A DNA stretch of 64,000 nt. It comes from Octopus sinensis. Its lineage: Eukaryota. The number at the start of each line of letters is the position of its first letter. The first letter of the stretch is position 1. Shown here one piece after another: positions 41,395-64,000 of the stretch. The stretch spans positions 27,342,001-27,406,000 of the forward strand of contig NC_042998.1 of NCBI RefSeq assembly GCF_006345805.1, read 5' to 3'. Position numbers: made by a program.

Positions 41395-44300
41395 TGAGTA
41401 TGTGTGTGTGTGAGAGAGGGGGAAGAAAGAGAAAAAGAGAGAAAGAATGGGTGAGAAAGAACAGGAGGGAGAAAGAGAAAGTGAGGGAGAGAATGGGCTG
41501 ATATATTTTACCTGTACAGATACCTTTTATTGATTGCTGATAGAGTTAATAATGAAGGATTAAAACTGTACACCTGTGAAGAAGAGAAAGGACATGTGTC
41601 TGCATATAAAGAGACTACAGCTGGATTTTTATGGTGATTATTGCCTTTGTCGGATCTAGTTAAGCTTTTCATAACTGCATTTCAACTGATTTATATTGCA
41701 TACCTGTGAAAGTTCATCACTTTTGAAAATAATCAAGAATTTCAAGGGATTTAGTCAAATTATTAATTTTTACATTTATTTCTATATCAAACTGATGTTT
41801 AGAATATTAATTAACAGAAGGTTCTTAGACAGAAATAAAAATTTTTTTAAAAACTATTATGGAAAGATTTAATATTGATACAAACATTTTGTAACTGGCT
41901 ACTTTGTATCAAAGAACCAAAGGACGCTTGTCCCTGGTAGATTGGTTCTAACCATTTAGCATTTAAACAATAATAATAATGAAATTATTGTATGGTGCTC
42001 AGGTGCACCACAACTTGTCAAAAGTGCGTGTAAAGCATATGCAGTAATGTACAAATGTCTGGAAAGTGAACAGTGTATGAGTTAGGTATATGCTTGCGTG
42101 TGCATGGAGGGGAGGAAATCAGGTGTAGTGTTGGCGAATCTCAGGAAGCATGGAAGTTTTGAAGGATGCAGTGCTCCGACAACTAACAACTGATGCCGAC
42201 AGTTTGTTCCATACTTCAGCAACTCTTAGCATGAAAAAATGTTTCCGAAAGTCATGGGAGCTGTGCTGTTTTCTGACTTTGTAAACATGTCCACGGGTGT
42301 AAGACAGGTGGAGTTTGAAAAGGTGCTCAGAGTTATTGTTTGTAAGACGGTTAATAATTTTATGGGTGTCTGCCAAGTCAGCTGCCAGACGTCAGAGTTT
42401 CAATGTGTCCATGCCCAGGGAGGTAAGGCATCCAGAATTAAATGTTCTACCTCTTCTATGCTCAAACTGGCCAGATCCAGCCTCTCACACATACCCTACA
42501 ATGTCATTCTAAAATAGAATGTCATTCTAAAAGTTTTAAGACAATGTATGATTAATTATAAACGATGCGAATAAATAAGTATTACGTTTGCCAGAGTAAT
42601 ACGAATGTTAAAGGGTCACAGAACTTTGAGAAGACGAAATACATTTTTTTGCAAAATGAATATTTTATAGTTAATGTTCTGTAAAGTATTTTGTCTAATG
42701 GGTAAATATTTTAATGCGAATTTCTAGAAGTGAATTAAACAGTTAAAAGTATCTTCTTACTTCAAAACATATTTCTCTTTATTGTATAGTGTTTCCTGTG
42801 ACATTTATAATGAGCAAAATATATTTTAGTAGCTTAAAAATCATTAAAATTTCTTTTAGTATTTTTTTCGTTAGCAACACAACTCAATATAATGTTCTTT
42901 CGACTGTTTTTATATCAAATCAATATTTAGGTTTGCATTTTGATCTGTTGCTGTAGCTTGGGTACACTTTCATCCCATTCAGCCTGAAAGAAGTTTCCAT
43001 AGATTGCATCCTGCAGGTAGTATTTCCGAGCAAAATCTCTCATCCTGTGGTTAGGTCTACCTTCTGCACTGTTGTTTGTTAACTTTTTCAGTCCAGGAAA
43101 GTCCATTCTGCCATTAGGTTGTTTGTACAACATGAATACGTAACGGTGATGGCCTGAATGGATTAAACAAAAGTAAAACCATAAAAATGAATACCTATGT
43201 ATATGTGTGTGTGTACATATACGTACATACATACATACATACATACATATGTATAGGCGCAGGAGTGGCTGTGTGGTAAGTAGCTTGCTAACCAACCTCA
43301 TGGTTCCGGGTTCAGTCCCACTGCGTGGCATCTTGGGCAAGTGTCTTCTGCTATAGCCCCGGGCCGACCAATGCCTTGTGAGTGGATTTGGTAGACGGAA
43401 ACTGAAAGAAGCCTGTCGTATATATGTATATATATATATATGTATGTGTGTTTGTGTGTCTGTGTTTGTCCCCCTAGCATTGCTTGACAACCGATGCTGG
43501 TGTGTTTACGTCCCCGTCACTTAGCGGTTCGGCAAAAAGAGACCGATAGAATAAGTACTGGGCTTACAAAGAATAAGTCCCGGGGTCGATTTGCTCGACT
43601 AAAGGCGGTGCTCCAGCATGGCCGCAGTCAAATGACTGAAACAAGTAAAAGAGAAAGAGAAAGAGAAATGCGACTTATTCTTTGTAAGCCCAGTACTTAT
43701 TCTATCGGTCTCTTTTGCCGGACCGCTAAGTGACGGGGGACATAAACACGCCAGCATCGGTTGTTAAGCAATGTTGGGGGGACAAACACAGACATACAAA
43801 CATACACACACACATATATATATATACATATATACGACGGGCTTCTTTCAGTTTCCGTCTACCAAATCCACTCACAAGGCTTTGGTAGGCATGAGGCTAT
43901 AGTAGAAGACACTTGCTCAAGGTGCCACGCAATGGGACTGAACCGGAACCATGTGGTTGGTAAACAAGCTACTTACGTGTACATATATGTACATACATAC
44001 ATACATATGTATTACATACATATAAGAGGGATGACCACTACGTGGACAACCCTTATGCTAGAAGTAGATCCATTATGGTCTTAACAGATCTACTTCTAGC
44101 ATAAGGGTTGTCCACGTAGCGGTCATCCATCTTATATGTACGTAATACATATGTATGTATGTATGTATGTATGTGTGAAGGCATTTGGCTTAATGGTTAG
44201 GGCTTTCAGATCATGATTGTAAAGTCGTGAGTTCAATTCCTAGTGGCACATCGTGTCCTTGAGCAAGACACTTTATTTCATGTTGCTCTAGTCCACTCAG

Positions 44301-61300: not shown

Positions 61301-64000
61301 GTCTGTTGAGAACCATTGGCTTATCCTCACAACCATATTATTTCAGACAAATTTTAATGACAAAATCTTATACAGGCCCCTACGGGTCATGTGAACACCA
61401 GTTGAGAACCATTGGCTTATCCTCACATATGAGATCAATACAATAAATATCTGTGAAAATACTAGGTTTTATATAATTGGCTAAAAGACTATCTTTGAAA
61501 GCAATGCCCCAGCATGGCATATCCCAATGATGAAAACGGTAAAAGAATAAAAGAATGAAAGAAAAGAAAGAAATTGCTGTCTTACCAAAAGCTGTTTTGA
61601 TGGCAATCTATCCACTATTCTGTTAACGAGACCATGAGTATTGAAAGCCTCCATTGGTAATTTTTATATTATTTTAGTAATGTATAAATCAGTTTTGATG
61701 GGGTTTTCTTTTTGTATTATCCTTGGAATAAACGTTATTAGTCTTATATTATCCTTGAGATAAACATTAAATTTGCTTGAAACTTCTGCTTTCCTTGTGC
61801 TGTTGTTTCTGCTTTTATAACCTTTATTCTCAAAATAACAACAACAGTCTTGGGCATTGGTTCATTAGATTTTAAGCATGGATAATGAGTTCTTTATGTA
61901 TTAATTTCTTTATTTTTACTGTTCAAGACAGACATTGTGAAAGATCTCTTAACAGTGGCACAGTTAATCAAGCAATTAATGTGAATAATAAGATCTTATA
62001 CAAGAGACTTTACAAATGTAGAGAGCTGGGTAATTACTTGTACAGTGAGACAGAAACTTAGCTAATGCGTAGTGTGTTTAAATATGAGTAATAAAGTCAT
62101 TCTAAAGTCTTACAGATAGAGTGAGAAATAAGTGTTAGCACAATGGGACGATCATGATAGCTTTAATTAATCAGGCTTTGTCATTGCCACCAGTGAAAAG
62201 AATGATTTGTAATTTAGTAAAACAAGTTTAATTATACAGAAATAAAGTATAGTATATATAGTTGCTTATTTGCTTTTTAAGAACTTCTTTTAATGCATTC
62301 AGAAAAAAAATTTTTTAAATAGACGCAAATATTTTAAAAATAGATGCAAAAAAATGTTGAACTAAATTTATACACCAGATAACGAACTTTTTATGAGGAT
62401 TAACTATTCTTAAAATATTTGCATAAGCTGGAAATGAAATGAAATTTAAATTGCAAATTTAGAGGAAAAGTTTATCCAAAGGGCCCCTGGAGTGATGTGA
62501 CTCAAGAGTGTGTGTAACTTGAAGATCAGGGAGTCTCTCCAGGTTGAACCCTAACTTCCTTACACTGAGGAGTCATAACTCTAATATTATTTAGAATTTT
62601 GCAAGAAAGAATTGCAAGACAGATTCTTCAAGCTGAGCCAAGTGGCAGGAAACCTAAGGGAAAACCACAAATGAGATTGGTTGAATAACATTCATAGTCT
62701 CAATTGGTCATGTTTTGAAATCCAACTGGAGACTCTAATGATGGTTGCTTCTCTTAGGACCCAATGGAAGAGGTGCCTAAGGACCCTACCTACACTACAT
62801 GCATCTTATAAGAATAGTGAGCAGAGATGATAGACTGATGCATGAGACATGGGCTAGCTAGCTGGATTGATGGATGGGGAGTGGATGAAAGTTTGTCAAA
62901 ATTTTTGATTAATCTATATATATAAAACTGAGGTTGTCTGTGTATGGCAGGTTTGGTAGCCTTCAACTAACACTATCTCCTCCGAAATTGAAAGTATGAT
63001 AGAAGAAGGCTTGCTCTTCATTCCGTAGAAGATAAAATTCGAATCAGACCATGTTAACACCAAAAATTATTTATATCAAAAAGGTGCTTTTTTTCTATGA
63101 AAATCCCCTTTTTACGATTTTTTGACTGCTGTATCGCCATTTTTCGGTGTATTTCAACCAGAAAAATGTTCACTTAAAGAGAATAACAAGCTACATAATG
63201 CAAACTTTTTACTTTTCAAAAATTCCAATTCTGAAGGGTCAAAACAAACCCGAGCAACGCCAGGCGATACTGCTAGTTTTAACTTATTTTAAAGACAATG
63301 CTGCTTTAGCAGGTAAAGACAAAAAGAAAGACATGAGGCAAGTTGATAACAGTCTCATTGAAATATAGGAATATATATTCACTCTCAATCTAAAATGTGG
63401 CTAAATGCTCCACACTTATATTAGTATCTTATAACTCATTGCGATTTTATATACATGCACACATATACATACACACTCATATTTACATATACTTGCACTA
63501 ATCACTGGCAGAAACGTTAGCATGCTGGGCGAAATGCTTAGCGGTATTTTGTCTGCCATTACGTTCTGAGTTCAAATTCTACTGAGGCCGACTTTGCCTT
63601 TCATCCTTTCGGGGTCGATTAAATAAATACCAGTTATGCACTGGGGTCGATATAATCGACTTAATCCGTTTGTCTGTCCTTGTTTGTCCTCTCTGTGTTT
63701 AGCCCCTTGTGGGTAGTAAAGAGATAGAAATAGGTAGTTCGTCTGCCGTTACGTTCTGAGTTCAAATTCCGCCGAGGTCGACTTTGGCTTTCATCCTTTC
63801 GGGGTCAATAAATTACGCACTGGGGTCAATGTAATCGACTTAATCCGTTTGTCTGTCCTTGTTTGTCCTTTCTATGTTTAGCTCCTTGTGGGCAATAAAG
63901 AAATAAGTATCATTTGCATAAATATCATTAATTATCACAGTCATTAATTTAACTAATATAATTACTATAGATAATCTGTTGTGTCTGGGGAGAGTTATTT

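What the first reader, a model, noticed from the sequence alone, without database searches (positions are those of the whole stretch)
42927..61654. O-crystallin-like PEBP paralogue: possible lens-crystallin recruitment within an expanded PEBP subfamily
Seen: a complete 184-aa PEBP gene spread over 18.7 kb. Known: octopus O-crystallin is a lens-abundant PEBP-family protein. From my recollection of its sequence, this protein shares subfamily-specific features absent from generic PEBPs (MEAFNxHGLV start, GMxxTPS, YYTLIMND, EFxHWLVVNI, GPLPxKG, GRMDFxGxKK, YGNFFQxEWDxSVPK) while differing at many other positions. Inferred: a paralogue rather than the characterised crystallin, useful for tracing how a lipid/phosphate-binding protein was recruited as a crystallin.
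Basis: partly seen in the sequence, partly recalled or inferred. Interest (0 to 1): 0.72.

Follow-up and report, generated by a model that had tools for sequence, protein, structure and literature searches.

The report
Octopus PEBP paralogue with crystallin-like composition
This is an intact four-exon octopus gene for a phosphatidylethanolamine-binding protein from a fast-evolving, methionine-rich cephalopod branch of the family; its suggested link to the lens protein O-crystallin is plausible but could not be checked directly.

Summary
On the minus strand, four exons with canonical AG/GT borders (61654-61586, 49406-49286, 47069-46932, 43153-42927) encode 184 aa. This reads the same as the database record 'protein D2-like [Octopus sinensis]' (P0005), so the gene model is already annotated. 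It is a clear PEBP: Pfam PF01161 at 60 bits, an AlphaFold model with pLDDT 95.3, and TM 0.90-0.94 to PEBP1/RKIP structures.

With four other proteins it forms a 100/100 clade on a long stem. Two are named, from O. bimaculoides and Argonauta hians; two are unnamed. Orthology to the O. bimaculoides protein (57% identity) is rejected (AU p = 7.8e-7), so octopods carry at least two old paralogues.

All five clade members are Met-rich (4.4-6.6% against 1.66 ± 0.74%), poor in aliphatic residues, basic, and high in predicted refractive increment. That is a crystallin-like composition. The window copy keeps the DPDxP, His and GxHR hallmarks. The O. bimaculoides/Argonauta branch has lost the DPDxP proline.

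Three points did not hold up or stayed open. The O-crystallin sequence could not be obtained, so orthologue versus paralogue is undecided. The window holds no second PEBP copy. No expression data were available.

The parts
61586..61654 (-). Exon 1 (coding part): ATG plus 23 codons, phase 0, donor GTAAGA
   Evidence: Residues 1-23 of P0005 are identical. Relatives hit it by tblastn at E 1.4e-7 to 0.055.
49286..49406 (-). Exon 2: 121 nt, acceptor AG, donor GTAAGT. It ends with the first base of the Asp64 codon.
   Evidence: tblastn hits from 8 of the 10 relatives, E down to 6e-11.
46932..47069 (-). Exon 3: 138 nt, AG/GTTAGT. It holds the DPDSPSR motif and His80, and ends with the first base of the Gly110 codon.
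   Evidence: On its own it matches Pfam PBP weakly (E 0.00059, below the cut-off). tblastn hits from 10 of 10 relatives.
42927..43153 (-). Exon 4 (coding part): 227 nt including the TAA stop. It holds GHHRY and the C-terminal helix.
   Evidence: It is 100% identical to P0005. tblastn hits from 10 of 10 relatives, E down to 6e-31.
42778..42783 (-). AATAAA, a candidate polyadenylation signal about 145 nt after the stop (inferred)
   Evidence: Read from the sequence only; there are no transcript data.
61812..61819 (-). TATAAAAG, a candidate TATA box about 160 nt upstream of the ATG (inferred, weak)
   Evidence: There are no transcript data. A second TATAAAA lies only 8 nt before the ATG and cannot serve this start codon.
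49407..61585 (-). Intron 1, 12,179 bp. It holds a 96-bp x 8 minisatellite (60659-61427) and copies of a 184-bp interspersed repeat.
47070..49285 (-). Intron 2, 2,216 bp, with copies of the 184-bp repeat
43154..46931 (-). Intron 3, 3,778 bp, with a 1.29-kb (TATG)n microsatellite at 44500-45785

Best explanation
The locus is an intact, already annotated, four-exon gene of Octopus sinensis or a very close relative. It encodes a 184-aa, 21.4-kDa cytosolic PEBP with no signal peptide-like extension; it starts MEAF like its relatives.

Shown here: it has the PEBP fold, and it keeps the family's hallmark residues (Asp64-Pro65-Asp66-x-Pro68, His80, Gly110-x-His112-Arg113-Tyr114). It belongs to a cephalopod branch of the family that sits on a long stem. 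It is an old paralogue of the octopod PEBP represented by O. bimaculoides 'protein D2' and the Argonauta hians protein. It shares that branch's unusual composition: many Met, more Arg and Phe, few Ala/Leu/Val, and a basic pI.

Inferred: an ancestor of this branch came under selection as an abundant, highly refractive lens protein (the O-crystallin story) and then duplicated. The window copy has the least degraded hallmark motifs, so it most likely still works as a PEBP1/RKIP-type binder of small anionic or phosphorylated ligands and partner proteins. The other octopod lineage has lost the DPDxP proline and has the most Met, so it is the better candidate for the dedicated lens protein. Whether the window copy is also abundant in the lens is open; I put it at about one in three.
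For: Gene model. Identity to the 184-aa record named 'protein D2-like [Octopus sinensis]'.

Family: Pfam PF01161 at 60 bits against a cut-off of 24. phmmer to PDB gives 3.9e-46 for Tm16 and 7e-40 to 5e-37 for rat, bovine and human PEBP1 over residues 13-180. The AlphaFold2 model has mean pLDDT 95.3 and pTM 0.91. Foldseek gives TM 0.90-0.94 and 38-43% identity to Tm16 and PEBP1/RKIP entries, several solved with o-phosphorylethanolamine, o-phosphotyrosine or cacodylate.

Hallmarks in the 60-sequence alignment A3: D64, D66 and H112 are invariant. P65 is kept in the window protein, P0007 and P0009 but is A/T in P0008/P0176. H80 is kept in 4 of 5 clade members (Q in P0009).

Clade and paralogy: in a 27-row tree the five proteins form a 100/100 clade with a stem of 0.43, and P0008+P0176 group at 100/99. 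Holding the window protein with P0008 costs 53.5 lnL, AU p = 7.8e-7. Both species are in the genus Octopus, while Argonauta is in another family. Identities: 57% to P0008, against 78% between P0008 and P0176.

Composition, 5 clade members against 64 other PEBPs of 170-190 aa: Met is 4.35-6.59% against 1.66 ± 0.74%. A+L+V+I is 18.1-20.1% against 25.2 ± 2.4%, and all 64 others are higher than all five. pI is 8.0-9.0 against 6.65 ± 1.12. Predicted dn/dc ranks 9, 5, 2, 3 and 6 of 69. [quoted passage not shown]
Against: No expression data of any kind were available. The O-crystallin sequence was never seen, so the link between this clade and the lens rests on recalled knowledge of the 1999 paper plus composition.

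The composition shift is one event on one stem, not five independent observations. For the window protein it is the weakest of the five: dn/dc is 0.1942, only about 1.25 sd above the mean of all 69 (0.1927, sd 0.0012), and its Met content is the lowest of the five. Two Trp-to-Phe changes shared by the clade lower refractivity. Eighteen of the 20 residue constants behind dn/dc were recalled; only Arg and Lys were confirmed in print.

The order of branches inside the clade is weak (81/57 and 89/83). AU does not reject the window protein with P0007 (p = 0.386) or with P0008+P0176 (p = 0.15). The AU groups were named after the tree was seen.

The pocket is also remodelled in the window copy: F78 where 41 of 55 others have W, L104 where 42 of 55 have G, and A106 where 50 of 55 have P. 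So 'keeps PEBP function' is an inference. Enzyme-crystallins often keep their active sites, so intact hallmarks do not argue against a lens role. Only the best 120 of 3889 hits were listed, so further cephalopod PEBPs may exist unseen.
Confidence: 0.5

Rival explanations
1. The window gene is the 1:1 Octopus orthologue of the described O-crystallin of Enteroctopus dofleini. On this reading it is itself the lens-abundant copy, and the P0008/Argonauta lineage is the non-lens paralogue.
For: It has the crystallin-like composition of the clade. Its R/(R+K) of 0.57 is exceeded by only 5 of 64 other PEBPs, and the K-to-R trend is described for crystallins in the abstract of PMC4047532. It is 184 aa and 21.4 kDa and 38-41% identical to vertebrate PEBPs. 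That fits what I recall of the 1999 abstract (22 kDa, 35-43%), but all five clade members fit it equally.
Against: No separately clustered protein named O-crystallin appeared near the window protein. Its UniRef cluster is given as n=1, Octopus sinensis. The P0008 cluster is given as n=2 with a taxon beginning 'Octop', which fits either Octopus or Octopodidae; Enteroctopus is in Octopodidae. This is weak, because the record may simply be absent from the collection. The P0008/P0176 lineage has more Met and a degraded DPDxP motif.
Confidence: 0.3
2. The clade is simply the cephalopod version of the ubiquitous PEBP1-type gene, duplicated. Its odd composition would then have a cause unrelated to the lens, such as the AT-rich genome, redox buffering by Met, or fast neutral drift. 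The window gene would be a broadly expressed housekeeping PEBP.
For: No other named cephalopod PEBP1-type protein was among the 120 best hits, so this clade may be the only one cephalopods have. The window is AT-rich, with GC of 0.25-0.43 per 2 kb. FYMINK residues are raised in all five: 30.4-35.7% against 26.2 ± 2.7%.
Against: Without Met, the AT-favoured residues are barely raised: 25.0-29.1% against 24.6 ± 2.9%. GARP in the window protein is 24.5% against 25.1 ± 2.1%, and Arg, a GC-favoured residue, is raised at z = +2.5. Met stands out alone at z = +5.0 for the clade. From recall, a PEBP is known to make up several per cent of octopus lens protein, and one seen passage lists O-crystallin as a cephalopod lens crystallin (PMC13643694).
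Confidence: 0.15
3. The gene is an unexpressed or decaying copy, and the gene model is an annotation artefact.
For: No transcript evidence was available here. No orthologue closer than 63% identity was seen in any other annotated species.
Against: The 552-nt frame is open across four exons with canonical splice sites and pyrimidine-rich acceptors. All invariant family residues are kept. The model folds with pLDDT 95.3. Its terminal branch (0.28) is no longer than those of P0007 (0.28) and P0009 (0.38).
Confidence: 0.03

Closest known systems
O-crystallin of Enteroctopus (Octopus) dofleini (Zinovieva, Piatigorsky & Tomarev 1999, Biochim Biophys Acta 1431:512). I saw only the citation and one review passage naming it as a cephalopod lens crystallin; its content is recalled.
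   Same: Both are octopod PEBP-family proteins of about 21-22 kDa and roughly 40% identical to vertebrate PEBPs (the O-crystallin figures are recalled). The window protein carries a composition of the kind described for crystallins.
   Different: The two sequences were never compared, so orthologue, paralogue or same lineage is unknown. Lens abundance defines O-crystallin and is unknown for this gene.
O. bimaculoides 'protein D2' (P0008) and the Argonauta hians PEBP homologue (P0176)
   Same: They fall in the same 100/100 clade and share clade-specific residues: F78, M117 and M182 in all five members, H111 in four of five (Y in P0176). They also share the Met-rich, aliphatic-poor composition.
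   Different: Identity is only 57% and 55%, and orthology is rejected. They read DADFPSH and DTDFPSR where the window protein keeps DPDSPSR.
Vertebrate PEBP1 / RKIP (PDB 1beh, 1a44, 2iqx, 2qyq) and the nematode protein Tm16 (5tvd)
   Same: The fold is the same, with TM 0.90-0.94. DPDxP, the conserved His and GxHRY are all present.
   Different: Identity is 38-43%. Changes near the pocket include W-to-F at 78, G-to-L at 104, P-to-A at 106 and L-to-H at 111 (the mapping to the human pocket residues is recalled). The protein is basic and Met-rich.
Generic mollusc PEBPs (Haliotis rubra 'protein D2-like', Solemya, Potamilus, Sinanodonta)
   Same: They are the same length and family, at 49-54% identity. 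Read-through fragments P0006, P0055, P0057 and P0067 break at the same two places as the window's exon 2/3 and exon 3/4 borders, which suggests the intron positions are conserved.
   Different: They lie outside the cephalopod clade. They are acidic (pI 5.8-6.0), have 4-5 Met against 8, and carry GLHRY and G[SA]GPP.

Membership tests
PEBP family (Pfam PF01161, PBP) | Profile match above the curated cut-off | tested here: met
   60 bits against a cut-off of 24, E 4.1e-16, for the 184-aa record identical to the exon model. Exon by exon, only exon 3 matched, and below the cut-off (20.6 bits).
PEBP family (Pfam PF01161, PBP) | PEBP fold | tested here: met
   The AlphaFold2 model has pLDDT 95.3 and pTM 0.91. 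Foldseek gives TM 0.90-0.94 to Tm16 and to rat, bovine, mouse and human PEBP1.
PEBP family (Pfam PF01161, PBP) | DPDxP motif | tested here: met
   DPDSP at residues 64-68. D64 and D66 are invariant, and P65 and P68 are near-invariant, in 60 sequences.
PEBP family (Pfam PF01161, PBP) | GxHR(Y) motif and the conserved pocket histidine | tested here: met
   G110-H-H112-R113-Y114 and H80. H112 is in 55 of 55 sequences outside the clade and H80 in 54 of 55.
PEBP family (Pfam PF01161, PBP) | Binding of anionic or phosphorylated ligands in the pocket | not testable with these tools
   This needs recombinant protein. Pocket-side changes (F78, L104, A106) leave it open.
Cephalopod PEBP clade (defined here) | Groups with the O. 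bimaculoides and Argonauta proteins to the exclusion of other molluscs and arthropods | tested here: met
   100/100 support, stem 0.43, in a tree of 27 rows chosen from the 277 proteins then held.
Cephalopod PEBP clade (defined here) | Clade-specific residues and Met-rich, aliphatic-poor composition | tested here: met
   F78, H111, M117, M126, M147, S172 and M182. Met is 4.35%, with only 1 of 64 others as high, and A+L+V+I is 20.1%, with all 64 others higher.
O-crystallin (octopus lens PEBP) | Sequence orthology to the E. dofleini O-crystallin record | not testable with these tools
O-crystallin (octopus lens PEBP) | High abundance in the lens (several per cent of soluble protein; recalled) | not testable with these tools
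   No expression or proteome data were on hand. Four paper searches found no octopus lens PEBP data in the open library.
O-crystallin (octopus lens PEBP) | About 22 kDa and 35-43% identical to vertebrate PEBPs (recalled from the abstract) | tested here: met
   21.4 kDa and 38-41%. This does not discriminate, because all five clade members are 21.1-21.4 kDa.
Taxon-specific lens crystallins in general | Composition that raises the refractive increment | tested here: inconclusive
   Predicted dn/dc is 0.1942, rank 9 of 69, about 1.25 sd above the mean of all 69. The constants were recalled apart from Arg and Lys. It is the lowest value of the five clade members.

The most novel reading that the evidence does not exclude
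O-crystallin is not one recruited gene but a small, old, fast-evolving cephalopod PEBP family. Its common ancestor was reshaped for refractivity (Leu/Ile/Val replaced by Met, Lys by Arg, fewer aliphatic residues). Its paralogues then divided the work: the window copy kept an intact ligand pocket, one lineage lost the DPDxP proline, and another lost the pocket histidine. More than one copy would be present in the lens. That would be a second, independent example in cephalopods, beside the S-crystallins, of duplication and divergence after lens recruitment, and it would come with a gradient of active-site decay.
Probability: 0.2. Interest if true: 0.6.

Novelty: new member of a known kind. Interest (0 to 1): 0.35.

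Why it matters
Lens crystallins are the textbook case of proteins recruited to a structural role. The PEBP-derived O-crystallin is the least studied cephalopod example: whole-word and word-start searches of the open library found only two papers that mention it.

This work shows that octopods have at least two old PEBP paralogues within one Met-rich, aliphatic-poor clade, and that the paralogues differ in how well they keep the ligand pocket. That gives a concrete pair of genes on which to test whether recruitment came before duplication, and whether the ligand-binding function was lost in the lens copy.

The gene itself is an ordinary, already annotated family member. Nothing here shows that it is a crystallin.

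Tried and rejected
Second PEBP copy in the window. tblastn of the four exon peptides and of ten relatives found only the four exons. Two weak hits of P0034 at 33228-33490 (E 0.043) were read in all frames and hold no PEBP motif, so I take them as chance. A weak exon-3 hit at 4017-4130 (E 3.9) lies in an ORF with no Pfam match.

Exon-wise Pfam. Only exon 3 matched, and below the cut-off; the pieces are too short.

O-crystallin sequence. The representative library has no names and merged the clade away.

Literature. Searches found no data on PEBPs in cephalopod lenses beyond one review sentence and one citation.

Lens-type promoter signal. The AP-1 site TGASTCA (its role in squid S-crystallin promoters is recalled) occurs 8 times in the window against 8.9 expected. 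One copy lies about 840 bp upstream of the ATG. This is not evidence.

Residue refractive table. Zhao et al. 2011 is not held, and PMC4047532 gives no table.

Other checks. The Atlas search on the neighbouring 519-aa ORF gave nothing above 0.88. Rfam and tRNA scans of the window found nothing. Pfam on 72 further ORFs of the window gave only a repeat-driven DUF6404 hit.

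Full report
WHAT IS THERE. On the minus strand the window holds four exons with canonical borders: 61654-61586 (ATG, donor GTAAGA), 49406-49286 (AG / GTAAGT), 47069-46932 (AG / GTTAGT) and 43153-42927 (AG, stop TAA). They add up to 552 coding bases, or 184 codons, with two split codons that read Asp and Gly. The introns measure 12,179, 2,216 and 3,778 bp. They are filled with a 96-bp x 8 minisatellite, a 1.29-kb (TATG)n run and copies of a 184-bp interspersed repeat. 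An AATAAA lies about 145 nt after the stop, and a TATAAAAG about 160 nt before the ATG. Both are only read from the sequence.

HOW THE SEARCHES WERE DONE. I searched the spliced model exon by exon. The exon-4 search returned a 184-aa database record named by its sources 'protein D2-like [Octopus sinensis]' (P0005, on a contig of 207.9 Mb). It is identical to all four exon peptides and has Asp and Gly at the two split codons. I used that record by its id for whole-protein work. So the window comes from O. sinensis or a very close relative, and the gene model already exists in public annotation.

FAMILY. The protein is an unambiguous PEBP. Pfam PF01161 scores 60 bits against a cut-off of 24. phmmer against the PDB gives 3.9e-46 to Tm16 and about 1e-37 to 1e-40 to rat, bovine and human PEBP1 over nearly the full length. 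An AlphaFold2 model built on a 60-sequence alignment has mean pLDDT 95.3 and pTM 0.91. Foldseek aligns it to Tm16 and PEBP1/RKIP entries with TM 0.90-0.94 at 38-43% identity. The hallmark residues are present: DPDSP at 64-68, His80 and G-H-H-R-Y at 110-114.

RELATIVES. The word-index searches found few close relatives:
- P0009, 63% identity, unnamed.
- P0007, 62%, unnamed.
- P0008, 57%, 'protein D2 [Octopus bimaculoides]'.
- P0176, 55%, Argonauta hians.
- Haliotis rubra, 54%, followed by other invertebrate PEBPs below that.

In one search, 3889 proteins passed E 1e-10 and only the best 120 were listed. I built a maximum-likelihood tree from 27 rows chosen out of the 277 proteins then held: the five above, five named molluscs, one annelid, ten named arthropods and six unnamed. 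In it the five form a clade with 100/100 support on a stem of 0.43 substitutions per site. Inside the clade, P0008 and P0176 join at 100/99 on a stem of 0.30. The remaining order is weakly supported: P0009 at 89/83, then the window protein at 81/57, then P0007.

Forcing the two Octopus proteins (window and P0008) together costs 53.5 log-likelihood units, AU p = 7.8e-7. O. sinensis and O. bimaculoides are congeners and Argonauta belongs to another family. So the window gene is a paralogue of the P0008/P0176 lineage, and the duplication is older than the Octopus-Argonauta split. AU does not reject the window protein with P0007 (p = 0.386) or with P0008+P0176 (p = 0.15). I named these groups after seeing the tree.

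The clade evolves fast. Its members are 53-63% identical to one another, apart from P0008/P0176 at 78%. That is no more alike than a gastropod and a bivalve PEBP (61-65%). The organisms of P0007 and P0009 are unknown to me, and I did not look for them.

Tested on all 273 fetched proteins of at least 97 aa, the seven motifs occur in 1, 3, 5, 7, 2, 1 and 3 proteins respectively. Only the window protein has all seven. Outside the five-member clade they occur in 0, 1, 2, 5, 0, 0 and 0 proteins. Clade-wide signatures are GHHRY (7 of 273, against GLHRY in 186) and GP[LI]P (9, against G[SAT]GPP in 167). So the features are truly subfamily-specific.

COMPOSITION. I compared the five clade members with the 64 other held PEBPs of 170-190 aa. 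P0006, a read-through fragment, was left out.
- Met: 4.35-6.59% against 1.66 ± 0.74%. At most 1 of the 64 reaches any clade member.
- A+L+V+I: 18.1-20.1% against 25.2 ± 2.4%. All 64 others are higher.
- pI: 8.0-9.0 against 6.65.
- Arg: z = +1.8 for the clade and +2.5 for the window protein.
- Phe: z = +2.0.
- Val: z = -2.1.
- Trp: z = -1.6.

The Met gains sit mostly where other PEBPs have Leu or Ile, for example M117 against Leu in 84% of the others and M147 against Ile in 40%. Predicted refractive increments are 0.1942-0.1957, against a mean of 0.1927 (sd 0.0012) over all 69, giving ranks 9, 5, 2, 3 and 6 of 69. The window protein is the lowest of the five. I recalled the residue constants from Zhao et al. 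2011; only Arg 0.206 and Lys 0.181 were confirmed in a passage of PMC11118217.

[quoted passage not shown] The abstract of PMC4047532 reports the K-to-R trend in beta/gamma- and S-crystallins. AT bias does not explain the Met excess. The other AT-favoured residues are barely raised, and GARP in the window protein is normal. This is one shift on one stem, so it counts as one observation.

POCKET. Three of the five clade members have lost a hallmark residue. P0008 reads DADFPSH, P0176 reads DTDFPSR, and P0009 has Gln at the conserved His. The window protein and P0007 keep all hallmarks. The whole clade also differs from other PEBPs beside the pocket: F78 where 41 of 55 have W, L/I104 where 42 of 55 have G, a non-Pro at 106 where 50 of 55 have P, and H111 in four of the five (Y in P0176) where 49 of 55 have L. 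The mapping of these positions to the human PEBP1 pocket is from recall.

THE O-CRYSTALLIN QUESTION. From the 1999 paper I saw only the citation, plus one review sentence that lists O-crystallin as a cephalopod lens crystallin. That it is a PEBP of 22 kDa making up a few per cent of lens protein is recalled. The paper is not held. No listed hit carries the name. The window protein's UniRef cluster is given as n=1. The P0008 cluster is given as n=2 with a taxon beginning 'Octop', which fits both Octopus and Octopodidae, the family that holds Enteroctopus in NCBI taxonomy. This mildly favours O-crystallin lying with P0008, or being absent from the collection. My estimates are paralogue 0.5, orthologue 0.3, and no lens connection 0.15.

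SURROUNDINGS. There is no second PEBP copy in the 64 kb. A 519-aa Ser/Pro-rich ORF at 11600-13159 (+) and a Gln/Pro-rich ORF at 19284-19790 (+) look like exons of a neighbouring gene that converges on the PEBP gene. Pfam and the Atlas did not identify them. Rfam and tRNA scans were empty.

VERDICT. But the gene is already annotated, the 'expansion' is small, and the tie to O-crystallin and to the lens is untested. Interest is moderate to low (0.35). I class it as a new member of a known kind.

Noticed in passing
window 11600-13159 (+) and 19284-19790 (+): A 519-aa open frame rich in Ser and Pro, and a 168-aa frame rich in Gln and Pro. They look like large coding exons of a neighbouring gene that runs towards the PEBP gene. 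There is no Pfam family, and the best Atlas look-alike scores only 0.88 ('Znf238.2 fragment').
   Followed up: partly
window 60659-61427 (intron 1, about 160 bp downstream of exon 1): A minisatellite of 8 copies of a 96-bp unit at 96% identity. Because 96 is a multiple of 3 it gives a 261-aa open frame on the + strand. That frame produces a spurious Pfam DUF6404 hit in which no single stretch passes.
   Followed up: partly
window 44500-45785 and 45894-46152 (intron 3): A 1.29-kb (TATG)n microsatellite with about 321 copies, plus a degenerate (TGTA)n run. Together they account for the GC skew of +0.37 in the 44-46 kb bin and for the long Cys/Met/Tyr/His 'ORFs' there.
   Followed up: yes
window, 26 places (for example 53058-53424, 39649-40015, 63545-63905); 9 lie inside the gene's introns: A 184-bp interspersed repeat at 75-91% identity, often as head-to-tail dimers. 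It is probably a SINE-like element. ARAGORN and Rfam find nothing in it.
   Followed up: partly
window 49694-50270 (+), intron 1: Three adjoining open frames of 60-95 aa, of which 49858-50070 is cysteine-rich. By recall they resemble the zinc-finger/GIY-YIG end of Penelope-like retroelements. Pfam gave no significant match.
   Followed up: partly
proteins P0055, P0057, P0067 (unnamed): Read-through fragments of generic-type PEBP genes (GLHRY, GAGPP), 54-56% identical to exons 3-4 of the window protein. Their junk N-termini end exactly at the exon 2/3 border of the window gene, which suggests a conserved intron position. Their organisms are unknown and I did not look for them.
   Followed up: no
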